Part shown: positions 3,657 to 26,033 of the stretch, one piece after another | Position numbering within the stretch: the stretch's first letter is position 1 | Layout of the letters: each line of letters starts with the position of its first letter | DNA from: Candidatus Hadarchaeales archaeon | Lineage (GTDB): Archaea > Hadarchaeota > Hadarchaeia > Hadarchaeales > Hadarchaeaceae | Reading direction: 5' to 3' | NCBI GenBank assembly: GCA_038851565.1 | Contig: JAWCKV010000008.1 | Coordinates: 1-28,361 of the forward strand | Length of the DNA stretch: 28,361 nt | Translations under genes and position numbers: made by a program | The notes under the pieces: model-generated | What the model was told of the DNA's origin: nothing | Database searches by the model: none | The model's input: only the letters and a program-made list of their open reading frames with translations

Positions 3657-3752
3657 GGCCCGGCATCAGAAGGTTTCAATCGTTAAATCTGGCACGAGAT
3701 GCGCGCGCTGAAAAACTGTACAGATGTACTCCTGCATTCTCAAAACAGAACA

Positions 3753-4739: not shown

Positions 4740-4740
4740 A

Positions 4741-5232
4741 CTATCTCTTACACCTCTCCTCTCTGGATATAAGAACCTGACCAGAGCGTGCCACTTCCTT
4801 CAGGATCTCCGGCCCCAGCTTTTTAACAATTCTCTCAATATCCTCGTGGTCGCCGCTGAGTTCTGCTATAAGCATGCCCCCCTTCGAGTCTATGACCTTA
4901 CCGCCCGCCCTCTCTATCTCAGTGACGACGCTCCACAGCTGGCTGTCCTCGAGCGGCTTTGTCCTGAGCAGAGCCACCTCACGCACAATGCTCTTCGCCG
5001 GATCGATCACCTCAACGTCGACGACAGGCTCGGCCCTGAGCAGCACCCTCCGCATGAAATCCGCCATCATGTCGTCCGCGTTGAATATCAGGATCATCCT
5101 GGCCAGACCGGTTGGCTCTATGCCCACCGTAACTGAGTCCAGGTTTATCTGCCTCCTGGTGAACTCCCTAGAAACCCTCATCATGACTCCGGGGATGTTC
5201 TGACAGAGCACAGAGAATATTCTCTTTTTCAT
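4741..5232 (-). CDS. ilvH: Acetolactate synthase small regulatory subunit (ACT domain)
   Basis: [27 protein letters not shown] motif, REVALL, EVARSG; lies between ilvB and ilvC. Confidence 0.88.
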
Positions 5233-5240
5233 GCAATCAC

Positions 5241-6923
5241 CTAGGTCAGTATAGGCTCATCCAGCCTTCCTCCGGCGGGCACCATCGGGAGAACGTGCTC
5301 CTCCGGGTCTATAACGATGTCCAGCACCGCAGGTTTGCCAGAGTTCAGCGCGTCCCTCAGCTTGGGGCCTATCTCGCCCGGTCTCGTGGCCCTGTCACCC
5401 CAGGCCCCGTACGCCTCCGCAAGCCTGACAAAGTCCGGAGACCCCCTGAGGTCCACGGCGGACCTCCTCTTTCCATAGAACAGATCCTGCCACTGCTTCA
5501 CCATGCCGAGATAACCGTTGTCGAAGATGCATGAAACAACGTTTATCTTGTTGATCACGGCCGTCGCGAGCTCCTGGGAGTTCATAAGGAAGCTTCCATC
5601 TCCCGCGATGTTGACAACGCTGTGGTCCGGTCTCGCCACCTTCGCTCCTATGGCGGCGGGGAAACCGAATCCCATGGTCCCAAGCCCTCCCGAGGATATG
5701 AAATGTCTCGGTTTCTTCACCTGACAGAAGTGCGCCGCCCACATCTGGCACTGTCCCACTTCGGTGACGATTATCGCATCATCCCCGACGGTTTCCATTA
5801 TCTCTCTGATCGCACGCTGCGGTTTTATCGGCACGTCGTCGTGGTCCATCCTTGGAGCGAGATCCTTTTTCAGTTTTTCGACACGGGTCAGCCACTCGCT
5901 AGTCCTGCCCTTTTTCACCTGAAGCTTCAGACCCGCGAGGACCGCCCTGAGGAAGAACCTCGCATCTGCCACGACAGGAAGGTCCACCCTGACGCTCTTT
6001 CCTATCTCCACCGGGTCGATGTCGGCGTGTATGATCTTTGCCCTTGACGCGAAGTGCCTGAGGTCTCCGGTGGCCCTGTCACTGAATCTAACACCGACGC
6101 CTATGAGAAGGTCGCACTCGGTTACCGCGAGGTTGGCCGCCATCCTGCCGTGCATGCCCAGCATCCCGAGGGACAGCGGATGGTCCTCTGGAATGGCCCC
6201 CTTGCCCATCAACGAAGTCACGACCGGTGCTCCGACCGTTTCCGCAAGCTGCACCAGCTCGGCGTATGCCCCGGACCAGACCACACCCCCGCCGGCGTAT
6301 ATCACCGGGCGCTCCGCGTTAGCGATCATCCTGACCGCCATTCTCACGTCCTCAGGGTCCGGCTCGAGCTTGGGCAGCTTGGTGTAAACAACCTCTGCCG
6401 GTATCTTCAGATCCGCTTTGCTGACCTGAACATCCTTTGGGATATCTATGTGAACCGGACCGGGTCTTCCTGACATCGCGGTGATGAAAGCGAGTCTGAC
6501 CGTGGCCGGAAGCTCATCAACGCTGTGGATGATGAAGTTGTGCTTGGTCGCCGGAAGCATCAGGCTGAGCATGTCTGCCTCCTGAAAGGCATCTGTCCCG
6601 AGTGTTTTCGTCGGCACCTGGCCTGATATCGCCACGACCGGGGAGCTGTCCATGTAGGCGTTGAGAATGCCCGTGGTAAGGTTTGTCGCTCCGGGACCTG
6701 ATGTTGACATGCACACACCTGGTCTTCCTAAGGCCCTAGCGTAACCGTCGGCGGCGTGGGCGGCTGCCTGCTCATGCCTGGTGAGTATGTGTATTATCTC
6801 GTGCTCGTCGTACAGCGCGTCGTAAACCGGTATTATCGCGCCTCCGGGTATGCCGAATATATGCTTAACTCCCTCCGCCCTCAGGGCTTCGAAGAGCGCC
6901 TTCGAGCCTGTCATCTCGGCCAT
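5241..6923 (-). CDS. ilvB: Acetolactate synthase large subunit
   Basis: FGIPGGA, RHEQAAAHAADGYAR, TSGPGATN, GTDAFQE, SGGLGTMGFG, GDGSFLMN..N TPP motif. Confidence 0.97.
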   Translation of the reverse strand: MAEMTGSKALFEALRAEGVKHIFGIPGGAIIPVYDALYDEHEIIHILTRHEQAAAHAADGYARALGRPGVCMSTSGPGATNLTTGILNAYMDSSPVVAISGQVPTKTLGTDAFQEADMLSLMLPATKHNFIIHSVDELPATVRLAFITAMSGRPGPVHIDIPKDVQVSKADLKIPAEVVYTKLPKLEPDPEDVRMAVRMIANAERPVIYAGGGVVWSGAYAELVQLAETVGAPVVTSLMGKGAIPEDHPLSLGMLGMHGRMAANLAVTECDLLIGVGVRFSDRATGDLRHFASRAKIIHADIDPVEIGKSVRVDLPVVADARFFLRAVLAGLKLQVKKGRTSEWLTRVEKLKKDLAPRMDHDDVPIKPQRAIREIMETVGDDAIIVTEVGQCQMWAAHFCQVKKPRHFISSGGLGTMGFGFPAAIGAKVARPDHSVVNIAGDGSFLMNSQELATAVINKINVVSCIFDNGYLGMVKQWQDLFYGKRRSAVDLRGSPDFVRLAEAYGAWGDRATRPGEIGPKLRDALNSGKPAVLDIVIDPEEHVLPMVPAGGRLDEPILT

Positions 6924-9968: not shown

Positions 9969-11108
9969 TTGAAGGTAAAAAACGCGGCGCTGACCGGAGT
10001 GCTCGTCTTTGGTATAGTGAGCCTGCTCGGAGACATAATTTACGAGGGATCTAGAGGAGTAATATCTCCGTTTCTCTACAACCTCGGGGCATCGGCCGCC
10101 GTTGTTGGTCTGGTGCTGGGGGCCGGGGAATTCGTGGGATACGCGCTGAGAGGGATCTTCGGCGCGCTTTCAGACAGGACGGGCTCCTACTGGGGCATGA
10201 CGATTGGCGGATATTTCCTCCTGATATCGATTCCTCTTCTGGCGGTCGCGGGAAGATGGGAAACGGCGCTTGTCCTGATCCTGTTCGAAAGGCTCTCAAA
10301 AGCCGTGAGAACCCCTGCGAGGGACACTCTTTTGTCTCACGTGACGAGAAAGATTGGAAGAGGGAAGGCATTTGGGCTACATGAGCTTCTGGACCAGATA
10401 GGGGCGGTGGCGGGCCCGGCGATTGTTTCAGTCGCTCTGTTTTTTTCCGGCAAATTTGAGATTTCATTTGCCATTCTTGCCGTTCCATACGCGCTCATGA
10501 TGGCCGCGCTGCTGATGGCCCGCAGGAAACTCGGCGCCGCCGCAGAAATAAAAAAATCAGACAAGCGATGGGGCAGTGCTGGATCTGGTTTAATACGGTA
10601 CTCCGCCGCAGTGGCGCTTAACTGTGCAGGTCTAGTGCCAGCTGGCCTGATACTCTACAGGGCAACGGATCTTGGAGTTCTCACCTGGGTCATCCCTCTC
10701 CTATATTTAGGAATTCAGGCGGTCGACGCAATATCCGCTGTGGCCGCGGGATACGCGTACGATTCTACCGGAAGGAAAATCCTGTTCCTGCCATTCGCAG
10801 CCTCACTGATCCCCTCAGTCCTTGTTTTCGGCGGGATCGAATGTGTGTTGGCCTCAGCCATAATTTTCGGGATAATATACGGGATGCAGGAATCGGTTTA
10901 CAGGGCGGCGGTTGCGGACATGACCCCGATCAGCTCAAGGGGAACCGCCTACGGAATATTCCACACATTTTACGGTTTCGGGTTCCTGATCGGAGGCGCT
11001 GTCTTCGGAATGTTTCTGGAGGGATCAATGTGGACGGCAGCTGTCCTCTACTCCATCTGCATGCAGGCAGTTGCGATGGTGCTGCTGGGTCAGAGTCTCA
11101 GGGACTAG
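9969..11108 (+). CDS. MFS transporter
   Basis: About 12 hydrophobic segments, GALSDRTG and [10 protein letters not shown] motif-A variants, [22 protein letters not shown]. Confidence 0.92.
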
Positions 11109-12037
11109 TCCCTCACCCCGGCCTCCACAATCTGAAATGTTGCCGACTCCTGGGGCAGGCAGGGATGATCCACTATCGTCGCGGTGCGTGAACCGGCCTT
11201 TGCTTTTCTCAGATAAACTCTGGCGGTCACCGCATGACCCAGAACATGACCGCCAACAGGCCTGGTTGGGTCACCGAAGAATACGTCCGGCCTGGCCTGA
11301 ACCTGATTTGTCACCAGCACGGCCAGATCGTTGAGTTCCGAGACCTTGTGTAGCTCAGCTATGTGTCTTCCGAGCTTCTGCTGCCTCTCGGCCAGAGCGC
11401 CGCGCCCGCAGTACTCCGTTCTGAAGAGGGCCGTCAGAGAGTCTATCACCAGCAACCTTATGCCCTCCGTCTTTGCCATGTCGGAAACTTTCTCGGCAAG
11501 CAGCATCTGATGATCGGTCGTATGTGCCCTTGCCACGTATATCCCGTCCAGGGCTACCTTGGGGTCGAGTCCGACGGCCATCGCCATCTGTGATATGCGC
11601 TCCGGCCTGAAAGTGTTCTCTGTGTCTATGAAAACCGCTCTCCCGCCGAGCCCCCCCTGCTCCGGAGAAAGCTGCACGTTGACGCAGAGCTGGTGGGCTA
11701 TCTGCGACTTTCCTGAACCGAACTCCCCAAAGAGCTCCGTTATCCCTAGAGTCTCCACGCCTCCGCCGAGAATTTTGTCCAGCGATTGACTGCCCGTGCT
11801 GATCCTACCGAGGCTCTTTCTCCTTTCAAGAACATCAATCGCCCGCTCGTACCCCATCTTTGACGCCTCGCGCGCGGCATTGATTATCTTAACCGCAGCG
11901 CGCATTCCAATTTCAGTGGCCTCCATCAGCTCCCCTGTGGTCGCAACCGCTATGCTCTCCACCGAATCATAACCGGCCTGCCTCAGCTTCTCCGCTATCG
12001 CGGGACCAACTCCATCAAGTTCTTCGATTTCAGGCAT
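11105..12037 (-). CDS. radA: DNA repair and recombination protein RadA (no intein)
   Basis: N-terminal HhH ([12 protein letters not shown]), [37 protein letters not shown]; start moved from 12148 to ATG 12037. Confidence 0.97.
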
Positions 12038-12100
12038 GCTTACCCGGACTGGATATCGTCCAATGTCTCTTATCCCGGTTCGGAGGAGAGGGGTCACCGG

Positions 12101-12121
12101 AATGGTCTTAAAAATCAGACT
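12101..12121 (-). promoter_or_regulatory. Putative radA TATA box embedded in a GTCT-N8-AGAC palindrome
   Basis: Minus strand AGTCTGATTTTTAAGACCAT, about 70 nt upstream of radA ATG. Confidence 0.45.
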
Positions 12122-12286
12122 GAATTTAACTGTCTTTTTTGTGACCATCGCAGTTCAATCATTGGTCCAAACAAAAAAAGACCATAAAACCATCTGAACC
12201 GAGAAAAGTCTCTTAAAACTCAAAGAAAAATCCATCAGACCGCTTATCCCAATTTTCAAATTCCATATCCGTGCCGGACAGAAATG

Positions 12287-12991
12287 CTATGAGATAAGCG
12301 GGAGCACCTCCTCGGTGATGTACGCGAGGAACTCTTTTACCTCCACGCTGGTGAAAAGCGTCACGACGCAGTTTCTGGTTATCCCCACTGTGATGCTCCT
12401 CTTCTGCACCTCGAAAACCGCATACCATATCTGACCGTGTTTCAGGTATTCCTGATAGAGGTTAGTATCGGCCAGCCCGGATCCGGCAAGCGCAAGCTTC
12501 CCTATGTCAGGGATGTCAACGTTATCGAACCATATCAGCTTCGTGGCCCGCGGGTTGGACTCGTGCAGCGTCTTCAGCGTCTCGTGCTTTATCCTCGCCT
12601 CAACTATCGCTCCTGTCTTTATGAACAGAATTTCGCTGAGCCTGTTCGCCACGTAGTTCGTGAGCAGCTTCTTTACACCCCTGGCCTTCGAAGGTGCCAT
12701 GACCACGAGAAAGACCCTGTTTCCGGTTCTCCTGAAAATGAACGGTACCTCCTCCGTCACAACCGTTTCGACCAGGCCCCTTCTATAGTACCTTGAGAGG
12801 ACGAAATCCCTGCTGAAGACCCCGCTCAGCGTGCCGGTCTCCATCTTCAGGTCGATAACCTCAGTTGTGAGAACTGTGTCCTTTCCTCCGACCTGACGCG
12901 GCTCCTCCTCCCTGAAGTGCTTCAGCTTTCTCGCCGCCGTGTTGAGATCCAGCGGCTCCTTCACCTCAAACACCTTCGCAACCAGGACCAA
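12287..12991 (-). CDS. Hypothetical protein (234 aa), divergent from the SMC operon
   Basis: Long ORF with coding-like composition, TTG start with GGTGGGGTG upstream; no family recognised. Confidence 0.85.
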   Translation of the reverse strand: MVLVAKVFEVKEPLDLNTAARKLKHFREEEPRQVGGKDTVLTTEVIDLKMETGTLSGVFSRDFVLSRYYRRGLVETVVTEEVPFIFRRTGNRVFLVVMAPSKARGVKKLLTNYVANRLSEILFIKTGAIVEARIKHETLKTLHESNPRATKLIWFDNVDIPDIGKLALAGSGLADTNLYQEYLKHGQIWYAVFEVQKRSITVGITRNCVVTLFTSVEVKEFLAYITEEVLPLIS

Positions 12992-13064
12992 TCTTACACC
13001 CCACCTGCTTTTATGCGCGTTTTTCTAAATATTTCACCGCCTGAGTTAATAAACGGGAGATAGC

Positions 13065-14927
13065 ATGTCCGGTGGCATGATAAAGGAGATAATACTCGAG
13101 AACTTCATGTCCCACACCTACAGCAGAATCTCGCTCTCAAAGGGACTGAATCTGATATGCGGCCCTAACGGAGCCGGGAAGTCCTCGATACTGCTTGGAC
13201 TGTCCGTGGCGCTCGGGCAGACATACACCGAGCGGTCGAGAAGGCTCAGCGACCTGATCCGGAGGGGGGAGGACATGGCCAGGGTAAGCGTGGTGTTCGA
13301 CAACTCACCCGAGGACGGAAAAAGACCGGTACCAGGAATCGCCGCTGACACAGTAGTGCTGTCCAGATACATGAAGAAGGATGGAACTTACTGGCACGAG
13401 ATAAACGGAAGAACCGTGGTCAAGGGGGAGGTCCTCAGGCTGCTGGCGAGGCTCTCCATAAACCCGGACAACATGCTGATCATAATGCATCAGAACATGG
13501 TCGACCTTTTCGGAGCAATCGACCCGAAGGAGAGGCTCAGGCTCGTTGAGGAGGCTGTTGGGCTGAGGGAGTACAGGGAGCACATACTGGAGGCGAGGGA
13601 GAAGCTGTCGCACACGCTCAGCGAGGAGGAGGCCACGCGCAGCCTGCTGGAGAAGGCGAGGGAGACGCTCCGGTACTGGGAAACCGAGTACCAGCGCTTT
13701 CAGAAAAAGCAGATGCTCGGAGAGAGGAAGAGGGAGCTCGAGGTGGAGTATGCATGGGCAAAGTGCAGGAAGCAGGAGGAAATCGTGGAGAAGCTGAGGG
13801 CGAGGGTTGAGGAGATGAACGCTGAACTGAAGGAGGTGACGGCCGAACTCGAAGCGGGCTCAAGGGACGAAAAGATGCTGGACAGAAAAATGAAGGAGCT
13901 CGACTTTGAGATAGAGTCCGCATATCACAGGCTCATTGACTTGGAGCGCCTGCGAGGTGAAACCGACGCTGGCATCAGACTTGGTGAAACGCTTCCGGGA
14001 GCAAAATCTGGACTCCCGGGCCTGAAAAAGACAGCGGCCGAACTCGAGAGTAAGATAGGAGAAGCGAAAAATGCTCTGGTCGGCCTGAAGGACGAACGCG
14101 CGAAAACACTTGAAAGCTATGTAGACAGCAGGGTCAGGGTGGCGGTCCTCGGGTTTCGGCGAGAGCTTCTGGAGAAGGAGATCTCGGAAGCCATGTCCGA
14201 GCTCCGCAGGGCGAGAAGGGAGCTGGAGGAGCTCGAGGCAGATGCGTCACAGGTGGGCGAAAAAATTGAAACAGATAGGAAACCACAAGACGTGCTTGAC
14301 GAGCTGAAGGTGGTGAACGCACAGCTATCAACCCTCTCCGATGTTTCTCCTGAAGTGGAGAAGATGTACACAAGCTACCAGAGCACCCTCAGGGAACTTG
14401 AGGCCAAGGCTGAGGTCGCCGCCGCCAACAGAAAAAAGGCGCTCGAGGAACTTGACGTCAGAAAGGTGAGATGGACTCGTGAAGTGGCCAAACTCATAAA
14501 TGAGGCGGGCGAGAGATACGCCGCGGTTCTCGACAGGGTGAATGCGAGGGGCGAGGTGAGGGTCACAAACCTCAACGACATCGACGAGGCGGGCATTGAG
14601 ATACTCGTTGGCTTCAGGGGGTCCTCCCCCCAGCTGCTCGACGCGTACACGCAGAGCGGAGGAGAGCGAACGACCGCAATAATGTGTTTTCTGCTAGCGC
14701 TTCAGCAGAAGATAAAGTCACCAATAAGGGCCATCGATGAGTTCGAGGCGCACCTTGATCCAAGAAACAGGGAGACGCTGTTCAAGGGAATAATAGAGTT
14801 CATGAAGGGCGAGGGCACACAGTACCTCGTGATAACTCCGGGACAGCTGGTAAATCTCGAGGGCGTGCCGAACGTGATAATGGTGCAGAACATCGCCGGC
14901 ACCTCCCACGTGAAGATGGTGGTTTGA
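13065..14927 (+). CDS. Short SMC-like ABC ATPase with Smc5/6-type motifs, no evident hinge or zinc hook
   Basis: IILENFMSH, Walker A GPNGAGKS, TERS..LSDLIRRG, Q-loop IMHQN, signature LDAYTQSGGE, Walker B/D-loop SPIRAIDEFEAHLD, QYLVITP; two coiled-coil arms of ~150 aa; alternative start ATG 13077. Confidence 0.93.
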   Translation: MSGGMIKEIILENFMSHTYSRISLSKGLNLICGPNGAGKSSILLGLSVALGQTYTERSRRLSDLIRRGEDMARVSVVFDNSPEDGKRPVPGIAADTVVLSRYMKKDGTYWHEINGRTVVKGEVLRLLARLSINPDNMLIIMHQNMVDLFGAIDPKERLRLVEEAVGLREYREHILEAREKLSHTLSEEEATRSLLEKARETLRYWETEYQRFQKKQMLGERKRELEVEYAWAKCRKQEEIVEKLRARVEEMNAELKEVTAELEAGSRDEKMLDRKMKELDFEIESAYHRLIDLERLRGETDAGIRLGETLPGAKSGLPGLKKTAAELESKIGEAKNALVGLKDERAKTLESYVDSRVRVAVLGFRRELLEKEISEAMSELRRARRELEELEADASQVGEKIETDRKPQDVLDELKVVNAQLSTLSDVSPEVEKMYTSYQSTLRELEAKAEVAAANRKKALEELDVRKVRWTREVAKLINEAGERYAAVLDRVNARGEVRVTNLNDIDEAGIEILVGFRGSSPQLLDAYTQSGGERTTAIMCFLLALQQKIKSPIRAIDEFEAHLDPRNRETLFKGIIEFMKGEGTQYLVITPGQLVNLEGVPNVIMVQNIAGTSHVKMVV

Positions 14928-15718
14928 TGGCTGGCGATAAGCGCGAACTTCTGATGAGGGTGATAGACCTCTGCGAGTCTGTCAGAAAGAAGGGGTTGGA
15001 TCCCTTCGATGTTGAGGTCAGGGAGTTCTTCGACCGCCTCAGAGAACTCCTGCCAAAGCTCAGGAGACAGGAGGAGTTCTACCTCGACATACAGGCAGTT
15101 CTGGGGCTTTCTGAAGTAGTCTACCAGCAGGGAGAGTGGGTGAAGCACAGATCTTCCGCGCTCTATCTGGATCCGCTGCTCGTTATGCTCAAGGTGCACG
15201 CGCTGTCCAATAAGGAGCTCGCCGATGTACTTGTCAGGTCGTGGCATCCGATAGTCGATGTGGAGTGCGTCACCGACAAGGGTTTCAGGGAAGCGATGGA
15301 CTACTGGAGCAATCTTCCGTCACTTGAGGAGAGGCTGCGCGGGCTTGATGTGCCCGAGGTGCTCACCGGTGAGCTCGCCAGGAAAGAACTGGAAAAGATG
15401 GGGGTGCTCTCGGAGGAGGACTTTGTTGTGCTGCTGGACAGGACCTGGCGCGAGCTCAAGGAACAGGCTGGAGGCAGGGGAGAGATTCCGTACTGGGAAT
15501 TCGTGTTCGAGAAGAGCTTCGAGGGCACGATACTCAGAGCATGGCTGGTGAGCTTCCTGGTGAGCTACGGTTACGCGACAATGGAAATCAGACCAATAGA
15601 GGAGGAGATAATTCTGAGGCCCTTGCCGAAGCCGGAGAAGCCGGAGCAGGTGGTCACTTTCTCTGTTCCAATCGCCATATCCCGCGAGGAGTGGCTCAGG
15701 AGGTTAAAAAATGGCTGA
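14924..15718 (+). CDS. Kleisin (ScpA/Nse4-like)
   Basis: N-terminal LDPFDVEVREFFDRL resembles the ScpA 'DPWDIDI' helix bundle; C-terminal winged-helix-like ILRAWLVSFLVSYGYATMEIRPIEEEIILRP; overlaps SMC stop. Confidence 0.72.
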   Translation: MMAGDKRELLMRVIDLCESVRKKGLDPFDVEVREFFDRLRELLPKLRRQEEFYLDIQAVLGLSEVVYQQGEWVKHRSSALYLDPLLVMLKVHALSNKELADVLVRSWHPIVDVECVTDKGFREAMDYWSNLPSLEERLRGLDVPEVLTGELARKELEKMGVLSEEDFVVLLDRTWRELKEQAGGRGEIPYWEFVFEKSFEGTILRAWLVSFLVSYGYATMEIRPIEEEIILRPLPKPEKPEQVVTFSVPIAISREEWLRRLKNG

Positions 15719-16304
15719 AAGCGCCGACGCAGTTGAGATGAGGGAGAAGGTGGCCCGGGCTGCGCAGCTGCTGCTTTTCAGACACCACATGGAGCCGGGC
15801 GCCAAGGTGTGGGAGCTGAGGCGGGCGCTCGGCAGGGACTACGAGCAAGTGATAAAGGTTCTGGACGCAGAGCTCGAGAAGCTCGGGCTGACCGTGAAGC
15901 GCGTGAGCGAGGGTGAGGGGCCATCTGACTCAGACAGGTACTTTGTCACCCTTAGGGGCAATCCAAAACTTGCAGATACGCGCACATTCGGGTGGAGAAT
16001 AGACGACATGGCAATGCTCGCCGTGGTGCTCGCGCAGATACTCGTGAGGGGTGGCAAGGTACAGCTGAAGGAGGTCCACAGGGTGCTGGAGGAGAAATTT
16101 CCAAGATGGAGGATCGAGTCGACGATAGACCGCTTCATAAGGAGGGGCTATCTGAGCGAGGACGAGGAGGGAACGATCTACACGGGATGGAGAACCAGAG
16201 CTGAGATAGACCAGAAGAAGCTTCTCACGATTCTTGTGGGAAAGGAGCCGGAGGCTGGGGAAACGGAGAGCCAGAAGAAAGATGAAGGTTCAGGCACCGA
16301 TTAG
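15711..16304 (+). CDS. Kite subunit (tandem winged helix), Nse3/MAGE-like
   Basis: ARAAQLLLF..ELEKLGLTV..YFV; MLAVVLAQIL..GG; FIRRGYL..YTGWRTRAE resembles the MAGE/Nse3 'v.qgYL..GpRa..E' motif; overlaps kleisin stop. Confidence 0.72.
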   Translation: MAESADAVEMREKVARAAQLLLFRHHMEPGAKVWELRRALGRDYEQVIKVLDAELEKLGLTVKRVSEGEGPSDSDRYFVTLRGNPKLADTRTFGWRIDDMAMLAVVLAQILVRGGKVQLKEVHRVLEEKFPRWRIESTIDRFIRRGYLSEDEEGTIYTGWRTRAEIDQKKLLTILVGKEPEAGETESQKKDEGSGTD

Positions 16305-17279
16305 GTCGACCTCTTTTCCCAGACCCTTCTTAACCGCCTTCCTGTAAACGAACGCTGCGGTGGCGATGTCCTGCACGGCAAGCCCCGTTGAATCAAAAAC
16401 CGTTATTTCGTCGTCGGAAGTCCTGCCTCTCTTCCTGCCGCATACTATCTCGCCGAGCTCCGCGTATATGTGGTCCGTCGTGATTTCATTTTTAGAGAGC
16501 GGCACGTTTATCTCACCGCTGTGCGTGGCCTGCTCCATGTCATCTATAACAAGCTTGGACCTCCTGAGTATGGCAGGATCGAGCTCCTGCTTTCCGGGGG
16601 CATCGGCGCCTATCGCGTTTATGTGAGTTCCTTCCGAAACCCATTCGTTCATCACCAGCGGTACGCGCGATGGAGTTGTGGTCACTATTATGTCCGCACC
16701 CCTCACCGCGTCTTCAACCCTTCGCTCAACGCTCACGCAGATGTCAAGATTCTTTTTCGCCCAAGCAGCGTAATTCCTGGCACAATTCATGTTCCTGCTC
16801 CATGCCCTTACCTCCCCCGGGTCGAACCGCTCTAACAGTGCCATCAGCTGGAAGCGCGCCTGAACACCTGACCCGACCATCCCGACGCTTTCGCTGTTCT
16901 TCCTGGCGAGATGCTTTGCGGCTAGGACCCCTGCCGCGCCGGTTCTGATGTTCGTTATAAAAGTTCCATCCATGACTGCGAGCGGATGCCCGGTTTTCGG
17001 GTCAAGCAGGATTATCGTTGCCATCACCGTGGGCAGTCCACGCTTTTTATTTTTTTGATGAACGTTTACCACCTTAACGCCTGCGGCCCCGATTTTACGC
17101 AAGTACGCGGGCATTGTCCTAAAGTCTCCGTCGTATTCTTCAAAGAACACATATGACTTGGGAGGCATCTGCACCCTTCCCATGCCCTTCTCCCTGAAGG
17201 CAGCCTCCACCGCCCTGATCGCTTCATTCACGCTCAGAACTTTTTCGACCTCAGCTCTCGAAAGAATAAGCGTGCGCAA
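16290..17279 (-). CDS. ala: Alanine dehydrogenase, archaeal ornithine cyclodeaminase/mu-crystallin family
   Basis: VQMPPKSY, GDFRTMPAYL, GVKVVNVH, RTGAAG, GSGVQA, HINAIGADAPGKQELD, FDSTGLAVQD. Confidence 0.88.
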   Translation of the reverse strand: MRTLILSRAEVEKVLSVNEAIRAVEAAFREKGMGRVQMPPKSYVFFEEYDGDFRTMPAYLRKIGAAGVKVVNVHQKNKKRGLPTVMATIILLDPKTGHPLAVMDGTFITNIRTGAAGVLAAKHLARKNSESVGMVGSGVQARFQLMALLERFDPGEVRAWSRNMNCARNYAAWAKKNLDICVSVERRVEDAVRGADIIVTTTPSRVPLVMNEWVSEGTHINAIGADAPGKQELDPAILRRSKLVIDDMEQATHSGEINVPLSKNEITTDHIYAELGEIVCGRKRGRTSDDEITVFDSTGLAVQDIATAAFVYRKAVKKGLGKEVDLIGA

Positions 17280-17341: not shown

Positions 17342-20188
17342 TTATTTCCAGCCGAACCTCCTGAAAAGCGCCTCCCTCTCCTGCTCAACTACAAGTTCCA
17401 CCAGCCTCTCCGTTATCCTCCTCTCCTTGGCGAGTATTTTCGAGGCTGATGCGGGAGTTATCCCCCTTCCCGAGAGCACGAATGCTGCCGCTTTTCCGTA
17501 TGATGATATGAGGCCTGACGTCGCTGCCATGTCCTTCGCCAGTCCGGTTTCTCTGCCCGCAGAGGCCATCTCCAGGGCGCTCCTCACCTCATCCTCGGTA
17601 TGCTCGCTCATGCCTATCCTCTTGGAACCGCATTTTGGACACCTCGGTCCCTCTTCGAGCTCCCCTATCGTCATCTCGCGCACGAACTCCCTGCAGTCCA
17701 AGCATGCGAAGGTCCTGACCTCGCTGAGCAACCTGACCTTCGCGGAGGCCAGCGCCAGAAGCCTCAGTCTCTTCGGGGCGGTCGGCTCGAGCGAAGCATA
17801 CCGCTGCTGCAGCGCCACAGCTGAAACAGGAGAAGGCGAATCTCTTGTCCCAAGCGAAACTATTGATATATCTCCGGAGGCTATTTTACTCAGCACCTCG
17901 CTTTTGATGTCAAGGTCCTTCGTTATCACCTCTTTGAAGGCCTCTTCGAAAGCCGGGGTGTCCTTCAGGGCCCTCATGAGCTTATCCATGACCGAACTTG
18001 TGATCTCCACATCTCTGTCAAGAACCCCCATGCGCCTCGCGACCTGGGCCAACCTCCATCTGAAGAACCTGCTGCCCTCAACTATCGCGCGCAGCTCATC
18101 ATCTGTTTTTTTGAGAGCCTCCTTCCTCAGGAACCCGATTACCTCATCCGGCTCAAGACCCTCAGAACGCAGGATCACCCTGTAGGGATCAACGGATGTT
18201 GCAACTGCACGTCCGGAATCCTCAGATATCCTGTGGGCAAGAAGCCTCGCGAGGGTCCTGTTCACGAGGGTTCCGAAGCATGCGCCGAGCACGCACGCAT
18301 CCCTGACCGCCTCGACCGTGATCAGGCTGTCGGCCGGGACCGGAAGCCCTTCTCTTATCTGCTCCTCCACATCGGAAAGCGCGGCATTAAATGTATCTGC
18401 TGAAACACCATACTCCCGGGACAGAATCTCAGACGCCTCTTTCAGGCTCGAGCCAGACTTCAGCATCTCAGCCGCCCTGCCCCTGATCCTGCCAACCTCC
18501 TGCGCGACCGAAAACGGCACTGGAATTTCCTCGCCTATCCAGGTCGGAATCGCGCCCAGAGGGTCATCGTCAGGTTTAACGTAAACCGTGTTCCTGTAGA
18601 CCTGAACTATTCTCCATATGCCTCCACCGATCACAAACCTTGTGCCCGGCTCACCGTACTCCGCCACGAATGATTCATCAAGCACACCGACCGGCTCACC
18701 CTTAGAGTCATCCACTATCAGATACTGCTTCAGCTCAGGTATCATGGAGAGGTTGTTGAAGTAGTAGTCGTATATTCTCTCCAACGAAGCCGGGCGCGTG
18801 AACTCTCCGTTCCTGACCCTGACCAGCCTTTTCTCCAGGCTCTGCGCGAACTCCAGCACCGCCCTGAGCTGATCCTCTCTGAGGTCCCTGAAAGGATACG
18901 CTCTCCTGAAGATGCCCAGCATGTCGCTCATCTTTGCGGTCCTCGATGCCAGCAGCGCTGACACGGAAGCGTGAAGAAGCACATCAAGGGGGGTTTCAAG
19001 GGAGCGGACCGGCTCGAGCTCGCCCCTCCTGGCCTTGGCCGCTATCACTATCGCCTCCAGGGCATCGTCCGGGTCCTGAACGATTATCACTCCCCTTGAA
19101 ACCTCACCTATCCTGTGACCGCTTCTGCCGACGCGCTGGAGGAGCCTCGTGACCTGTCGCGGTGAGTTGTACTGTATCACCAGATCCACCCTGCCGACAT
19201 CGATCCCGAGCTCAAGCGATGACGTGCATATCATTCCCCTGAGCCCCCCGCTCTTGAGCCCGCTCTCGGCTCTGACCCTGGTGAAGCTTGAGAGGGATCC
19301 GTGATGCACGCCGACCGGAAACCCGATATCCCAAAGCCTGAAGCGGCTCGCGAGAGCCTCAGCGGTCGGACGCGTGTTGGTGAAGACCAGCGTCGAGCGG
19401 TGCGCCTCTATGAGTTCCCTCATCCTCCTGAGCCTGGCAGCGACCGCAGGAAAGGTGTACAGCTTTTCCGAAAGCACGATGTCCTGACGCGATGGCTCCG
19501 GGAACACCACGTCCAGCTCCATCTTTTTGGCGAACGTCACGTCAACCACCTCACACCCCCTGCCCTGCCCCACCAGAAATCTGGCGACCTCATCCGGAGA
19601 ACCGATCGTGGCTGAGAGTCCTATCACCTGAAAGTCTCCGCTGATCTCACGCAGCCTTTCGAGGTTGAGCGAAAGCTGAGCGCCCCTCTTGCTGTCAACC
19701 AGCTCGTGAACCTCGTCCACCACGACCCACCTGACGGTCCTGAGGTAGGAGCTCAGCTTTTTGCCAAGCAGAAACAGCTGCAGGCTCTCGGGGGTGGTTA
19801 TCACGACATCTGACGGGGCAAGAGCCTGGGATCTCCTCTCCCTGGCGCTGGTGTCACCGTGCCGGACCGAGACCTTAAGGTCGAGCGCCCTGCACCATCC
19901 CTCCAGCCTCTCGAGCATGTCCCTGTTAAGCGCCCTCAGGGGAGTTATGTAAATGGCCTTGATGCCCCTTTCCCTACCATGCGTCATGAGGAGGCCATGC
20001 AGAACAGGGAGGAACGCGCTCTCCGTCTTACCGCTGCCTGATGGTGATATGAGGAGGACGTTCCTGCCCTCGAGAATCTTGGGTATGGCCATCTTCTGGG
20101 GCAGCGTTGGCTCCGTGAACCCCCTCTCCGCAAGCAGCTTTCTTATCGGCCTCGCCAGCAGATCGAATACGTTTTCAACTTCCTGCAT
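17342..20188 (-). CDS. lhr: Lhr-family SF2 helicase with C-terminal CxxC..CxxC zinc motif
   Basis: SPSGSGKT, TPLRALNRD, TTPESL, DEVHEL, SAT, HHGSLS, TSSLELGIDVG, QRVGRSGH, WIGE; CLDC..CPKC. Confidence 0.93.
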   Translation of the reverse strand: MQEVENVFDLLARPIRKLLAERGFTEPTLPQKMAIPKILEGRNVLLISPSGSGKTESAFLPVLHGLLMTHGRERGIKAIYITPLRALNRDMLERLEGWCRALDLKVSVRHGDTSARERRSQALAPSDVVITTPESLQLFLLGKKLSSYLRTVRWVVVDEVHELVDSKRGAQLSLNLERLREISGDFQVIGLSATIGSPDEVARFLVGQGRGCEVVDVTFAKKMELDVVFPEPSRQDIVLSEKLYTFPAVAARLRRMRELIEAHRSTLVFTNTRPTAEALASRFRLWDIGFPVGVHHGSLSSFTRVRAESGLKSGGLRGMICTSSLELGIDVGRVDLVIQYNSPRQVTRLLQRVGRSGHRIGEVSRGVIIVQDPDDALEAIVIAAKARRGELEPVRSLETPLDVLLHASVSALLASRTAKMSDMLGIFRRAYPFRDLREDQLRAVLEFAQSLEKRLVRVRNGEFTRPASLERIYDYYFNNLSMIPELKQYLIVDDSKGEPVGVLDESFVAEYGEPGTRFVIGGGIWRIVQVYRNTVYVKPDDDPLGAIPTWIGEEIPVPFSVAQEVGRIRGRAAEMLKSGSSLKEASEILSREYGVSADTFNAALSDVEEQIREGLPVPADSLITVEAVRDACVLGACFGTLVNRTLARLLAHRISEDSGRAVATSVDPYRVILRSEGLEPDEVIGFLRKEALKKTDDELRAIVEGSRFFRWRLAQVARRMGVLDRDVEITSSVMDKLMRALKDTPAFEEAFKEVITKDLDIKSEVLSKIASGDISIVSLGTRDSPSPVSAVALQQRYASLEPTAPKRLRLLALASAKVRLLSEVRTFACLDCREFVREMTIGELEEGPRCPKCGSKRIGMSEHTEDEVRSALEMASAGRETGLAKDMAATSGLISSYGKAAAFVLSGRGITPASASKILAKERRITERLVELVVEQEREALFRRFGWK

Positions 20189-21067: not shown

Positions 21068-21145
21068 TGGTGCGGCCGGCGGGATTCGAACCCGCGTCAC
21101 GGGCCCGGGGAGCCCGGGTCTTAGACCAGACTGGACCACGGCCGC
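21068..21145 (-). tRNA. tRNA-Gly(CCC), encoded CCA, atypical anticodon loop
   Basis: GCGGCCG acceptor stem, A73, CGGGC/GCCCG anticodon stem, loop UCCCCGG, GCGGG-TTCGAAT-CCCGC T arm. Confidence 0.9.
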
Positions 21146-21185: not shown

Positions 21186-21980
21186 TTAAAGCCTCTCCCG
21201 CGCGAGTTCCGTAAGCTCTGTCTTAGTGAGCATTCCAACGAGCTCATTCTCGAGATTCACCACCGGAAGCGCTGAAAACCTTCTCTCGAACATCAGCTTC
21301 GCCGCCTTGGAAACAGGATCGTCGGTTCTGGCGCAGATGGCCGGGCGGGTCATCGCGTCCTCCACGACCAGATTCTTTATCCTCTCCGACTTGTACTGGT
21401 CTGGCACCACGTCGTGGAATGCCGCGAGCGCCTTTGCAACATCTCTCATCGTTACTATCCCGGCCACCCTCTTATCAACGATCACCGGGAGCGCGAGAAC
21501 GTCCTCCTCCATGAGAACCCTCCTCACGTGCATCACCCGGTCTGTGAGCGAGGTCGTGAGCGGGCTGGACTGCATGATTTCACCCGCATAAACGTCGCCG
21601 TACTCGAAGCAGACCTTCGCAAAGTCCATCTTGGTTACAATCCCGACCATCCTTCCCTCCTCGACCACCGGAAGACCGCTCACATCATGGTCCAGCATCA
21701 GCTCGGCCGCTCTCTTCGCCATTATGTCGGGCGCAACGGTCGTCGGGTTTTCAGTCATCGCGCTAGAGACGTGTATCTTGCTGAGGGGCAATCTAGAGGT
21801 TTGAACCGAGCCGAGTTCCCTGACCATGTCCTTCTCAGTCAGGACCCCGACTATCTTAGCTCCATCAACCACCACCAGCCTGGAAATCCTCTCTCTGACC
21901 ATTATTTCCATGGCTCTGTCAAGCGTCGAATCCTTGGAAACCGTGAGAACGGGTGAACTCATTATCTGACTCACTTTCAT
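21186..21980 (-). CDS. CBS domain protein (4 CBS)
   Basis: MKVSQIMSSPV, ISRLVVV..VGVLTEKD, SGLPVV..VGIVTKMD and further repeats. Confidence 0.93.
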   Translation of the reverse strand: MKVSQIMSSPVLTVSKDSTLDRAMEIMVRERISRLVVVDGAKIVGVLTEKDMVRELGSVQTSRLPLSKIHVSSAMTENPTTVAPDIMAKRAAELMLDHDVSGLPVVEEGRMVGIVTKMDFAKVCFEYGDVYAGEIMQSSPLTTSLTDRVMHVRRVLMEEDVLALPVIVDKRVAGIVTMRDVAKALAAFHDVVPDQYKSERIKNLVVEDAMTRPAICARTDDPVSKAAKLMFERRFSALPVVNLENELVGMLTKTELTELARERL

Positions 21981-22831
21981 AAAGACCTCTCCTGCCCCGC
22001 CAGAGCTTTAAGTATCTCAGACTTTGTGATGACTCCCGCCAAGGTATCTCCCCTGACAACCGGCAACATCGTCAGCCCTCTCTTCATAATCAGCTCGGCC
22101 GCCACGACCGCGCTCTCCTCCTCACTGACGGTCACCAGGTCTGGTCTCATCAGATCCTCCACCTCCGCGGAAAAAACCTCTCTGACGTGACGGGCCATGG
22201 GTCTCCCCGCCCTCTCTATTTTTCTGGTGAACTTTGTCATCTTTTTTTCCTTCACGCCTTCAATGCTCGCAAATGCGATGTCCACGCCCGTTATTATGCC
22301 CACGGGCCTTTCCCCTTCCAGAACGACCGCTCCCTTTTCTCCTGCTGTTATGATGCGTTTCAGGGCCTGTGATAGTGAGTTCCTTCTCCCGACCGAAACA
22401 AACTCGCGCTTCATGATCTCACCGATTTTCATGTTCAAGCCACCACTCCTGACGAGCGCCCTCAGTACGTCAGTTTCCGTCACTATCCCTGTAACATCTC
22501 CGGCATCAGTGACCAGAACGCTGCCAACCCCTCGCTGCACCATCACTCTGACTGCCTTGAGAACATCTGTGCCAACAGAAACAGATACCAATTCCGTGCT
22601 CATGAGCGTGGAAACCGGTATCGACTCCAGCGGACGCAAAGTGCGCGACTGCATCTCGCGCCATATGTGTGCAGCTATGTCACTAATCGAAATCACTCCA
22701 ACGACCTTCCCCCTCTCGAGAACCGCAAGATGCTTCACCTTTCTGCTCAGCATCATGTTCCTGGCTACCGCCACCGGGTTGGTAGGACGCACCGCCAGCA
22801 CTGGGGAACTCATAAGCTCATCTACCTTCAA
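21977..22831 (-). CDS. CBS domain protein (4 CBS)
   Basis: VDELMSSPV, KHLAV..VGVISISD, GIVTETD, GIITGVD, LPVV..GVITKSE. Confidence 0.92.
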   Translation of the reverse strand: MKVDELMSSPVLAVRPTNPVAVARNMMLSRKVKHLAVLERGKVVGVISISDIAAHIWREMQSRTLRPLESIPVSTLMSTELVSVSVGTDVLKAVRVMVQRGVGSVLVTDAGDVTGIVTETDVLRALVRSGGLNMKIGEIMKREFVSVGRRNSLSQALKRIITAGEKGAVVLEGERPVGIITGVDIAFASIEGVKEKKMTKFTRKIERAGRPMARHVREVFSAEVEDLMRPDLVTVSEEESAVVAAELIMKRGLTMLPVVRGDTLAGVITKSEILKALAGQERSL

Positions 22832-23724
22832 ATCAACAACCTCAACAGATCGTGCTCCGTTATTATCCCCTGAAGTTCACCGCCGGAAAGCACGGGGATC
22901 CCTCCGAGTCCCCTTTCCCTCATTAGGGCCGCCGCCTCCCCGACATCGGTGTCTGGGCCGACCACAACAACATCCCTCTTCATAATATCCTCAACCGGCG
23001 CCTCCATCGCCTCCTCCATCCCACGCGACTGCATGCGCTCAAAGACCCTGCTGCTGCCAAGATATCCGAGCACATCCATTGTGGTCACGATTCCGAGAAG
23101 CTTTTTATCCATGACCACCGGAAGCCTGCGGAAGCCCATTCTCACCATTCTCTTAGACGCATCAAGCACCGTATCGCTCGGGGCAACCGTAACAACATGT
23201 CTGCTCATGTGGTAGCTCACCTTTTTTCCCGTTGAAGGCGTTATGTGTGAAATGAGGTCTCTCTCTGCTATCATCCCAAGAATTTTTCCGTCATCGACCA
23301 CTGGCACGCCTCCCACACCTTCAGAGAGCAGGAGCCTCACAACCTCTTGGAGCGACATTTCAGGTCCTGCGAAGGGGAACCTCTCGGAGAGTATCATTCT
23401 CACCGGCTCGTTAACCGCTGAGAGAAAATTTCCTCCAAACCTGGCCTGTATGATCCTGTGTTTCTCCCCTCCGCCCAGAAAATCGACGATATCCCTGCTT
23501 CGCAGCACGCCATATAGCTTCATTGAACCGGGCTCCGCCACAGGGAGCCTCCTCTCCTTTTTTGATACCATGATCTCAGAAGCTCTCTTTATTGGGGTGG
23601 TCGGGGTGATGGTGGTGAACTGCCTCCTGGCAATCCTGAGCGCCTCCCCTTCCTCCTTTCTGATCCTGGAGCTGAAACTCAACGGTCCCCTGTCCAGCGA
23701 CTTGTAATGCGGCACTCTTCTCAT
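22828..23724 (-). CDS. CBS domain protein (4 CBS), MJ1225-like
   Basis: PTTPI..RRLPV..DIVDFLGGGEKHRII..NFLSAVNEPVR matches my recollection of the MJ1225 (AMPK-gamma-like) sequence. Confidence 0.9.
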   Translation of the reverse strand: MRRVPHYKSLDRGPLSFSSRIRKEEGEALRIARRQFTTITPTTPIKRASEIMVSKKERRLPVAEPGSMKLYGVLRSRDIVDFLGGGEKHRIIQARFGGNFLSAVNEPVRMILSERFPFAGPEMSLQEVVRLLLSEGVGGVPVVDDGKILGMIAERDLISHITPSTGKKVSYHMSRHVVTVAPSDTVLDASKRMVRMGFRRLPVVMDKKLLGIVTTMDVLGYLGSSRVFERMQSRGMEEAMEAPVEDIMKRDVVVVGPDTDVGEAAALMRERGLGGIPVLSGGELQGIITEHDLLRLLI

Positions 23725-24545
23725 TGTTTTCCCTCCATGATCCTCAAAACGTCGGAAACGCTCAGTATCCCGACCAGATTCCCGCCTGAAACAACCGGAA
23801 GTCTGCCTATCCTCTTTTCGGCCATGATTTCGGCAGCCCTGCTCAAAAGCGTATCCGGTTGCACGGTTACAACAGGAGTCCTCATGACAGATTTAACTCT
23901 GGAAGCGCTCCTTCCCTTGCCTGACTCATGGCTGAGCCTGACCGCTCCCGAACGTATCAGATCTGACACAGTTACCATTCCGATGACAGCCATCTTTCCT
24001 CCGTCTTTCCTCACCACGGGGATCCCTGAAATCCCTCCTCTCTCCATGAGGTCCCAGACCCTGGAGATCTCGTCCTCGGGGGAGCAGGAGATAACATCCG
24101 CTGTCATCGCTTCGCTGACCCTCACGCTTCCGGCAGCGCTCCCCGCCGTGAGCCTCAAAACCTCGTCGAGCCTGATCATTCCAACGACCGTCCTGTCAGT
24201 GTGGCTCTGCACGACCGGAGCTTCGCGCAGTCCCTCTTCCACCATCTCGGAAACCGCCCTGCCGACCGAATCGGCTGGAGTTATGAGCGGCAGGGGCGGG
24301 AGCATCACGCCGCTTATGGGTATGTTTGACCTGGTTGAAGTCACGCGCATAACATCCCTCGCCCTTACTATTCCCTCCAGACGCCCCCCCACCGCCACCG
24401 GCGCAACCCTGATGCCTCCATCTCGCATCACGGCCCTCGCCCTGGTAACCGGGTCTCTGGGCTCCAGGAAAGCGGGGCACGGAACCATTACCTCTCTCAC
24501 GCTTACCCGTTCCAGCGGGCTACCGCTTTCCGGACTCAAGTTCAT
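23721..24545 (-). CDS. CBS domain protein (4 CBS)
   Basis: VREVM, APVA..GIVRARD, VSEAMT..SGIPVV..GMVTVSD, GRLPVV..VGILSVSD. Confidence 0.92.
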   Translation of the reverse strand: MNLSPESGSPLERVSVREVMVPCPAFLEPRDPVTRARAVMRDGGIRVAPVAVGGRLEGIVRARDVMRVTSTRSNIPISGVMLPPLPLITPADSVGRAVSEMVEEGLREAPVVQSHTDRTVVGMIRLDEVLRLTAGSAAGSVRVSEAMTADVISCSPEDEISRVWDLMERGGISGIPVVRKDGGKMAVIGMVTVSDLIRSGAVRLSHESGKGRSASRVKSVMRTPVVTVQPDTLLSRAAEIMAEKRIGRLPVVSGGNLVGILSVSDVLRIMEGKQ

Positions 24546-25072
24546 CCGCTCATAGAGTCTCTACAATCCTCGCAGACCCACATACCGTTAACTTCATACA
24601 GACTGGTTGTGACCTCACCGCAGTTCTCGCAGACGCTTTCCTCCACACTCTCCTTGTCCTGCTCCTCCCTGTGAGCAACGACCTCGATCAGCTCGGGGGA
24701 CATTGCCGTGATGTCGCTCGCCGATATTATTCCGACCAGGTTTCCGCGATCCACCACGGGAAGGCGCCTTATGCGGTTCTTCGCCATTATCTTTGCGGCC
24801 TCGGTGATGTCAGCATCAGGCGATATCGTCACGAGAGGCGACGACATTATCTTTCCGATCTTGATCTTCGCCGGCATTATGTTCGGCCCCAGCACCTTCA
24901 TCAGCAGGTCACGCTCGGTCAGTATACCCACGGGCTTTTTGTTCCTCAGAACCACCAGACTTCCAACGCCGCGATCGGCCATCATCTTGGCGGCGCGGGC
25001 AACAGTGGTGTTCTCTCCGGCGGTTAGAACTTTAACGGTCATTGCGTCTCTGACGGAAATTATCCGCTTCAT
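24542..25072 (-). CDS. CBS-pair protein with C-terminal zinc ribbon
   Basis: VRDAMT, GILTERD, IRRLPVV..VGIISASD, CENCGE..WVCEDC; start moved to ATG 25072. Confidence 0.92.
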   Translation of the reverse strand: MKRIISVRDAMTVKVLTAGENTTVARAAKMMADRGVGSLVVLRNKKPVGILTERDLLMKVLGPNIMPAKIKIGKIMSSPLVTISPDADITEAAKIMAKNRIRRLPVVDRGNLVGIISASDITAMSPELIEVVAHREEQDKESVEESVCENCGEVTTSLYEVNGMWVCEDCRDSMSG

Positions 25073-25175
25073 CGTGCTACCATTTTCATTTTTACACGTC
25101 CGCTTATTTAACTTTGCGCATACCATTAGGGGTCCTGGCTGGCATTTTTTTACCATGAAGCATCAGTTTTAAACG

Positions 25176-25912: not shown

Positions 25913-26033
25913 GCCGGGGTAGCTCAGCCTGGTCAGAGCGCGAGACTCATAGCTTCGACCGCAGCTGTGAGTGCTGATCCACGGGATGATGTGGGAAATC
26001 TCGAGGCCGCGGGTTCAATTCCCGCCCCCGGCA
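25913..26033 (+). tRNA. Elongator tRNA-Met(CAU) with 46-nt intron at 37/38 (25952-25997)
   Basis: GCCGGGG/CCCCGGC acceptor, CGAGA/TCTCG anticodon stem (A31-U39), CAT 25948-25950, BHB helix CUCA/UGGG; no encoded CCA. Confidence 0.94.
25952..25997 (+). ncRNA. Putative intron-encoded box C/D-type guide for Cm34 of pre-tRNA-Met
   Basis: Guide AGCTGTGAGT 25963-25972, box D CTGA 25974-25977, box C'-like ATGATGT 25986-25992; complementary to ACTCATAGCT 25945-25954. Confidence 0.65.

What the first reader, a model, noticed from the sequence alone, without database searches (positions are those of the whole stretch)
13065..16304. Minimal archaeal Smc5/6-like complex: SMC + kleisin + Nse3/MAGE-like kite operon
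Seen: three translationally coupled genes (stop/start overlaps at 14924-14927 and 15711-15718). The ATPase has ENFMSH, LDAYTQSGGE, LLALQ..SPIRAIDEF..HLDPRNR and QYLVITP. Knowledge: QSGGE, 'SPFR.lDE' and Pro in place of the switch His (ITP) are typical of eukaryotic Smc5/Smc6, not of condensin Smc (LSGGE, ITH/ISL) or Rad50. Inference: the two 'hypothetical' followers look like a kleisin and a MAGE/Nse3-type kite, giving a complete homodimeric SMC-kleisin-kite complex resembling a prokaryotic version of Smc5/6. Archaea-specific SMC relatives (ClsN, Sph, Arcadin-4) are known, so novelty in this lineage must be checked.
Basis: partly seen in the sequence, partly recalled or inferred. Interest (0 to 1): 0.9.

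Follow-up and report, generated by a model that had tools for sequence, protein, structure and literature searches.

The report
Hingeless archaeal SMC5/6-like operon
These three genes encode an already published archaeal relative of the eukaryotic SMC5/6 DNA-maintenance complex; the twists not seen in the papers I could read are that its ATPase has no hinge, that the lineage's second SMC complex also seems to lack one, and that a neighbouring gene with an RdgC-like DNA-binding fold travels with it.

Summary
The window is from a Hadarchaeales archaeon. The 620-aa ATPase hits Smc5 first in the PDB and groups with SMC5/6 in head trees; gene 2 matches Nse4, gene 3 weakly MAGE/Nse3. Yoshinaga and Inagaki 2021 list a 61%-identical Hadesarchaea orthologue as SMC5/6-related, and van Hooff et al. 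2025 describe such SMC-kleisin-kite operons. This scan also found the family before in at least seven other genomes.

Not seen in those papers: (1) the arm is a plain hairpin, with no hinge and no zinc hook; 49 of 56 family representatives are like this, while a few keep a hinge or carry a CxxC hook; (2) the canonical Smc-ScpAB of this order also appears hingeless (Pfam hinge in 0 of 65 genomes); (3) the divergent upstream gene has an RdgC fold (Z 13.2) and co-occurs with the ATPase (170 both, 18 and 11 alone, 202 neither); Lhr helicase is often adjacent.

Best model, inferred: an ATP-gated, kleisin-bridged DNA clamp acting at replication or recombination intermediates. No binding or activity was tested.

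The parts
13065..14927 (+). SMC5/6-related archaeal SMC ATPase, 620 aa: N-head 1-165, helix 168-309, 4-residue turn 310-313, helix 314-397, joint 398-430, helix 431-491, C-head 494-620; no hinge, no CxxC hook
14927..15718 (+). Nse4-type kleisin, 263 aa (alternative TTG start at 14924)
   Evidence: profile hits human EID3 E 9e-5 and yeast Nse4 E 2.9e-4, ScpA pieces only E 0.6-1.1; Nse4_C in 35 of 51 members; aligns over 179 columns with the genome's ScpA, E 4e-4
15711..16304 (+). Nse1/Nse3 (MAGE)-type kite, 197 aa
   Evidence: best PDB hit a MAGE-domain chain (7dg2_C), E 0.2; MAGE in 7 and SMC_Nse1 in 2 of 44 members, no ScpB family listed; no match to the genome's ScpB
12287..12991 (-). Divergent gene, 234 aa, no Pfam/NCBIfam/PADLOC match; predicted RdgC-like fold (next: CENP-L/Iml3); candidate fourth component
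   Evidence: head-to-head in 13 of 13 Hadarchaeota loci and 15 of 43 Thermoproteota loci with at least 1 kb upstream; co-occurrence
12992..13064 (.). 73-base AT-rich gap between the RdgC-like gene and the SMC gene; presumed shared divergent promoter region (inferred)
   Evidence: a TTTA(A)-rich stretch aligns across 7 loci but is weakly conserved
11105..12148 (-). RadA recombinase, downstream of and co-oriented with the RdgC-like gene; linkage seen only here, on the genome's second copy and in one further locus (L106, position not examined)
   Evidence: NCBIfam RadA over cut-off
17342..20188 (-). Lhr-type SF2 helicase, convergent, one gene (cyclodeaminase family, 16290-17279) away; recurrent neighbour
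   Evidence: WH_Lhr; present downstream in 4 of 9 Hadarchaeota and 12 of 19 Thermoproteota loci with at least 3.9 kb downstream

Best explanation
This is a member of the published archaeal SMC5/6-related SMC-kleisin-kite family, in its common hingeless form (shown by sequence, tree and structure model). Inferred mechanism: two ATPases are tied together only by the kleisin (N-terminal helices on the neck of one, C-terminal winged helix on the cap of the other) and, on ATP binding, by head engagement; a kite homodimer sits on the kleisin middle, and DNA is clamped between heads and kites as in eukaryotic Smc5/6. The arms (helix 168-309, about 140 residues out to the tip) end in a bare turn, so no hinge closes the ring. 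The complex most likely works as an ATP-gated DNA clamp or holder at replication and recombination intermediates rather than as a long-range loop extruder, in one pathway with an RdgC-fold DNA-binding protein and often an Lhr helicase. Family membership about 0.95; no hinge or hook about 0.95; functional link to the RdgC-like gene about 0.65; the clamp-in-repair role about 0.5.
For: Best PDB sequence hits are Smc5 (E 4e-34) ahead of Smc (4e-24) and Rad50 (5e-7). Family plus eukaryotic SMC5/6 form a clade with UFBoot 97 and SH-aLRT 91; grouping the family with canonical Smc or Rad50 is weakly rejected (p-AU 0.035, 0.022). TDA30713.1, in Yoshinaga's SMC5/6-related table, is 61% identical over 621 columns. 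AlphaFold2 model (pLDDT 88.6): helix 168-309, turn, helix 314-397. A custom hinge profile found 27 of 29 presumed hinge carriers at 12 bits or more in leave-one-out but gave the query 2.3 bits. The tip is the least conserved part and the W231-G398 span varies from 99 to 232 residues. Engineered hinge-less yeast Smc5/Smc6 sub-complexes co-isolate only with ATP (PMC8327961, passages). RdgC fold: Z 13.2, rmsd 4.6, 214 aligned; next rows Z 8.1; Foldseek E 8.8e-7. Co-occurrence phi 0.86 against 0.33 for ScpB in the same 401 genomes.
Against: No binding, stoichiometry, DNA binding or phenotype was tested. The kite match is weak. The RdgC-like gene was not found in 18 of 188 ATPase-bearing Thermoproteota genomes (5 of them re-searched at E 1 with no real hit), so it is not obligatory; kin are not independent, so phi overstates. 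A shared fold shows no function, and the fold also resembles CENP-L/Iml3. RadA linkage is local. One locus (L097) has the ATPase without kleisin and kite nearby. Arms could still self-associate along their length, as a moderately conserved patch at 350-372 hints.
Confidence: 0.55

Rival explanations
1. It is a closed mini-ring and a true loop extruder: the arms dimerise by coiled-coil contacts at or near their tips (RecN-like, recalled), so the hinge is dispensable.
For: The order keeps two full SMC-kleisin-kite operons with no detectable hinge, so ordinary chromosome organisation must be done without one. The B. subtilis hinge can be swapped for a zinc hook (PMC5344682, figure legend). Conserved patch at 350-372.
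Against: The tip is unconserved and of variable length, whereas hinged Smc arms show tight length modes (PMC5344682, passages).
Confidence: 0.25
2. The RdgC-like protein is a detached substitute for the hinge or a loader: a DNA-binding dimer that bridges the two arms.
For: Head-to-head gene arrangement and tight co-occurrence; co-loss in one Hadarchaeales genus of 3 genomes; RdgC is a toroidal DNA-binding dimer (PMC2965237 abstract); predicted pI 9.2.
Against: Not found in 18 of 188 genomes that have the ATPase; no conserved surface at the tip; the hingeless canonical Smc has no such neighbour noted.
Confidence: 0.12
3. It is a defence system against plasmids or viruses, like Wadjet or Lamassu, or like SMC5/6 silencing episomes.
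For: Eukaryotic Smc5/6 restricts circular extrachromosomal DNA (PMC10586767, passages); RdgC binds circular DNA; patchy presence in Thermoproteota (188 of 401).
Against: Core-like: 24 of 26 high-quality genomes of the phylum, in all five families of the order; housekeeping neighbours; no PADLOC match for kleisin, kite or RdgC-like protein and only ATPase-level matches for the SMC; no nuclease effector beside it.
Confidence: 0.08

Closest known systems
Archaeal SMC5/6-related SMC (Yoshinaga and Inagaki 2021, PMC8665677) and SMC5/6-related SMC-kleisin-kite operons (van Hooff et al., bioRxiv 10.1101/2024.01.07.573240)
   Same: Same protein family, same three-gene operon, second canonical complex in the same genome; four Hadesarchaea members are in the 2021 supplement, one 61% identical to this protein.
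   Different: In the text I read, neither paper mentions absent hinges, hook-bearing members or an RdgC-like partner ('hinge' occurs 4 and 3 times, only generically). Van Hooff's supplements could not be read and may say more.
Eukaryotic Smc5/6 (Smc5, Smc6, Nse4, Nse1, Nse3)
   Same: Head motifs: QSGGE and TP as in Smc5, DEFxxHxD close to the DEFDVFMD of Smc6-type proteins (Smc6 label by recalled motif); Nse4-type kleisin; MAGE-type kite.
   Different: One SMC gene and one kite gene; Walker A to signature span 498 against 879-932 residues; no hinge; no Nse2/5/6 in the operon.
Smc-ScpAB (prokaryotic condensin)
   Same: SMC-kleisin-kite layout; the kleisin aligns with ScpA.
   Different: Separate clade; the genome has its own Smc-ScpA-ScpB on contigs C22/C43; kite does not match ScpB.
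ASRP (ClsN/coalescin, Sph), Arcadin-4, Rad50
   Same: Short SMC-like ATPases without a hinge.
   Different: ASRPs mostly carry a zinc hook and have no consensus flanking genes (PMC9389158, passages); the query has no CxxC and scores 49.6 bits against an ASRP cut-off of 300, 31.5 against 860 for arcadin-4.
RdgC (E. coli, P. aeruginosa)
   Same: Fold of the divergent 234-aa protein.
   Different: 9-10% identity, about 70 residues shorter; ring formation and action on RadA untested.

Membership tests
Archaeal SMC5/6-related complex | Head groups with eukaryotic SMC5/6, apart from canonical Smc and Rad50 | tested here: met
   UFBoot 97, SH-aLRT 91; alternatives p-AU 0.035 and 0.022. ClsN, JetC/MksB/MukB and RecN were not in the trees.
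Archaeal SMC5/6-related complex | Orthologue of a published member | tested here: met
   61% identity over 621 columns to TDA30713.1; same clade
Archaeal SMC5/6-related complex | Nse4-related kleisin in the operon | tested here: met
Archaeal SMC5/6-related complex | Nse1/3-like rather than ScpB-like kite in the operon | tested here: met
   weak but consistent; no structure model was made for it
Archaeal SMC5/6-related complex | The three proteins form a complex | not tested
   no complex prediction was obtained; needs experiment
SMC protein in the strict sense (hinge, kleisin, kite/hawk; PMC10586767) | Hinge dimerisation domain | tested here: not met
SMC protein in the strict sense (hinge, kleisin, kite/hawk; PMC10586767) | DNA loop extrusion | not testable with these tools
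   needs single-molecule assay
Rad50 / ASRP (ClsN, Sph) | Zinc hook at the arm tip | tested here: not met
   only Cys 32, 234, 541
Rad50 / ASRP (ClsN, Sph) | Score over the family cut-off | tested here: not met
   Rad50 69 of 700, ASRP 49.6 of 300 bits
Wadjet / Lamassu | Nuclease or effector gene beside the SMC genes, sporadic distribution | tested here: not met
RdgC (divergent gene) | RdgC fold | tested here: met
   Z 13.2, rmsd 4.6, 214 aligned; E 8.8e-7
RdgC (divergent gene) | Sequence membership of the RdgC family | tested here: not met
   no Pfam, NCBIfam or PDB sequence hit
RdgC (divergent gene) | Toroidal dimer that binds DNA and inhibits the recombinase | not testable with these tools
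   needs biochemistry

The most novel reading that the evidence does not exclude
Hadarchaeales organise, segregate and repair their chromosome with two SMC-kleisin-kite machines of which neither has a hinge or hook, and the SMC5/6-type one uses an RdgC/CENP-L-fold protein as a fourth subunit. The hinge would then be a replaceable module, kept, lost or swapped for a zinc hook within the sister family of eukaryotic SMC5/6, and these roughly 250 kDa natural complexes would show directly whether a closed ring is needed for SMC action.
Probability: 0.25. Interest if true: 0.8.

Novelty: new variant of a known kind. Interest (0 to 1): 0.47.

Why it matters
The operon class is known but, by van Hooff et al., untested, and they call for its characterisation. 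The hinge is treated as a defining part of SMC proteins and as one end of the DNA-holding ring. A natural, conserved, small hingeless SMC-kleisin-kite complex, and an archaeal order with no detectable SMC hinge at all, allow a direct test of whether DNA clamping, entrapment or loop extrusion need it, and of what the ancestor of SMC5/6 did. The RdgC-like gene gives the first functional lead for the family.

Tried and rejected
Rad50, ASRP/ClsN, arcadin-4, canonical Smc and Wadjet/Lamassu identities: rejected. Truncation, frameshift or misassembly as cause of the short ATPase: rejected; both heads are in one frame and 49 of 56 family representatives are short. Pfam SMC_hinge alone as the hinge test for SMC5/6-type proteins: too insensitive (it hit 1 of the 6 long Smc5/6-type eukaryote-like proteins scanned), hence the custom profile; that profile itself missed P0204 and L084, so P0204's central domain is only a presumed hinge. 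Horizontal transfer from Thermoproteota into Hadarchaeales: undecided; Thermoproteota monophyly was rejected with all rows (p-AU 1.5e-4) but not after I dropped L087, P0180 and two outgroup rows (p-AU 0.41). Search for longer homologues gave 1 hit. Sigma-70 promoter scan, not suited to archaea, gave nothing. ESM Atlas gave only sub-0.9 leads for the divergent protein (CENP-L 0.84, RdgC 0.79). Complex prediction of ATPase with the RdgC-like protein could not be run, so there is no verdict. Foldseek of the ATPase model ranked Pyrococcus Smc first and Smc5/6 chains at ranks 2-5, so it does not separate the subfamilies. Literature searches that found no report of hinge loss or an RdgC link.
Full report
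Observation. The three ORFs, their overlaps and all quoted motifs are present. Of the 13 closest named loci, 11 are titled Hadarchaeota/Hadesarchaea and one uncultured archaeon (59-68% identity), one Aigarchaeota (41%), so the window is read as Hadarchaeales. Kleisin and kite follow the ATPase in 14 of 14 Hadarchaeota loci and 45 of 48 loci of the Aigarchaeota genome's phylum (taken to be Thermoproteota) with enough downstream DNA; those loci were the top 30 hits, 20 hand-picked regions and L013, not a random sample. The ATPase has a full-strength hit (E below 1e-99) in 52 of 66 genomes of the phylum, 24 of 26 high-quality ones (my count), and in 188 of 401 Thermoproteota genomes at E 1e-45.

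Identity. Smc5 chains are the top five PDB sequence hits. In 300-column head trees the query falls in an archaeal clade that joins eukaryotic SMC5/6-type proteins (FastTree 0.97; UFBoot 97; SH-aLRT 91 under a mixture model), apart from canonical Smc and Rad50; the alternatives are only weakly rejected (p-AU 0.035 and 0.022). The eukaryote-type rows came from an unnamed library and were labelled by motif (Smc5 motif seen, Smc6 motif recalled). ClsN, JetC/MksB and RecN were tested only by profile scores. The profile of gene 2 hits EID3 and Nse4 (E 9e-5, 2.9e-4) before ScpA, 35 of 51 members match Nse4_C, and it aligns with ScpA at both ends. Gene 3's best PDB hit is a MAGE-domain chain at E 0.2; 7 of 44 members match MAGE and 2 Nse1.

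Prior work. Yoshinaga and Inagaki 2021 (PMC8665677; I saw passages, section 10, supplement parts 1 and 3 of 4 and term searches) define 80 SMC5/6-related archaeal SMCs. Their table lists four Hadesarchaea accessions, of which TDA30713.1 is 61% identical to the query. Van Hooff et al. (bioRxiv 10.1101/2024.01.07.573240; parts 1-4 of 7 and term searches; supplements closed, journal version not held) report Nse4-related kleisins, Nse1/3-like kites and three-gene operons, with a few euryarchaeal cases. Earlier notes of this scan say the same for other genomes; one of them sent me to the 2021 supplement.

No hinge. The AlphaFold2 model (89 sequences, pLDDT 88.6, pTM 0.63) runs helix 168-309, four-residue turn, helix 314-397. 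There is no CxxC. A hinge profile that recovered 27 of 29 presumed carriers in leave-one-out gave 2.3 bits for the query and at most 5.7 for 78 other short members (the script stopped on a later print step). The tip is the least conserved stretch and varies in length. Among 56 full-length archaeal-type proteins in the best 150 representatives, 49 are short without CxxC, 3 are about 1,030 aa with a CxxC near the arm midpoint, and 4 are long with a central domain. Of those four, P0212 (Freyarchaeum) and P0252 match Pfam SMC_hinge, P0180 scores 25 bits on the custom profile, and P0204 is doubtful. The hook forms are Bathyarchaeota where named, nest among short forms, include a published member (RLI38935.1), and the one locus seen has no kleisin, kite or RdgC-like gene within 13 kb.

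The second complex. The genome also has Smc, ScpA and ScpB genes, the Smc broken over two contig ends. Pfam SMC_hinge, which rings in 10 of 14 control genomes, is found in 0 of 65 genomes of the order and in the single genome of the sister order, whose Smc frame is 1,144 aa. In 20 of 25 order genomes listed the Smc open frame is 706-780 aa; the others are 123, 296, 524, 616 and 915 aa. Eight such proteins score at most 0.2 bits on the custom profile and have no CxxC, and two match the SMC_prok_A model in two stretches, the C-terminal one starting at model position 703-726. No structure model was made for them, so this rests on sequence.

The fourth gene. The divergent 234-aa gene has no family match. 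Its model (pLDDT 89.4) matches E. coli RdgC at Z 13.2 over 214 residues, well above TBP and Iml3/CENP-L at 8.1 and 7.6 (Foldseek E 8.8e-7). It is head-to-head with the ATPase in 13 of 13 Hadarchaeota loci and 15 of 43 Thermoproteota loci. Across 401 genomes: both 170, ATPase only 18, RdgC-like only 11 (8 of them weak, E above 1e-40), neither 202; phi 0.86 against 0.33 for ScpB. In the window's phylum: 50, 2, 0, 14, with one genus of three genomes lacking both. Kin are not independent and the genomes are incomplete, so this is a lead, not a test. RdgC is a toroidal DNA-binding dimer that inhibits RecA (PMC2965237, abstract). An Lhr helicase lies downstream in 4 of 9 and 12 of 19 loci; archaeal Lhr prefers fork structures (PMC7437997, search listing). 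RadA follows the RdgC-like gene here but rarely elsewhere.

Mechanism. Shown: family, operon, ATPase motifs, bare tip. From established SMC knowledge: kleisin bridges neck and cap, kites bind kleisin, ATP engages the heads. Inferred: with no hinge the dimer depends on kleisin and ATP, as engineered hinge-less yeast Smc5/Smc6 halves do (PMC8327961, passages), and the complex is best read as an ATP-gated clamp at forks or recombination intermediates. Arm self-association with loop extrusion, an RdgC-like hinge substitute and a defence role are the rivals. None was tested physically.

Origin. Hadarchaeales members form one clade. Whether it came by transfer from Thermoproteota is undecided.

Verdict. 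Known family and known lineage. The hingeless state, the hingeless canonical Smc, the hook-bearing branch and the RdgC-like partner were not found in print, within a library that lacks most subscription journals and van Hooff's supplements. The hingeless state was noted before by this scan; the RdgC fold and the hingeless canonical Smc did not turn up in my three look-ups.

Noticed in passing
G000:C47 (L017, L018): A second syntenic copy of radA, RdgC-like gene, SMC, kleisin and kite, 78% identical in DNA over 3,980 columns; more likely a related organism's contig in the bin than a duplication. Its radA frame is interrupted after FGSGK by a long insert that looks like an intein.
   Followed up: partly
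G000:C22 1-369 and C43 1-3063; L067-L078, L086: Canonical Smc-ScpA-ScpB of Hadarchaeales is also short (706-780 aa) and without a detectable hinge or hook.
   Followed up: partly
L108:4876-8016; P0139, P0147, P0157, P0187: Bathyarchaeota SMC5/6-related ATPases of about 1,030 aa with a CxxC zinc-hook-like motif near the arm midpoint; stand-alone gene in the one locus seen.
   Followed up: partly
G000:C45 4300-5259: A further RadA-like frame, 61% identical to the window's RadA.
   Followed up: no
L084:1714-5199: Canonical Smc of an Aigarchaeota genome has a degenerate-looking hinge region containing CxxC.
   Followed up: no
window 21186-25156 (-): Five consecutive CBS-domain genes; part of the array lies next to the SMC locus in L001, L002, L004 and L012.
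   Followed up: no
window 1293-1385, 21068-21145, 25913-26033: Three tRNA genes; the first and third are long (about 90 and 121 bases); the third was found only by Rfam and may carry an intron.
   Followed up: no
L097 (G377:C1): ATPase with the RdgC-like gene co-oriented upstream and no kleisin or kite hit within about 4 kb.
   Followed up: no
window 1417-6923 (-): Branched-chain amino acid biosynthesis cluster (dehydratase, reductoisomerase, acetolactate synthase subunits).
   Followed up: no
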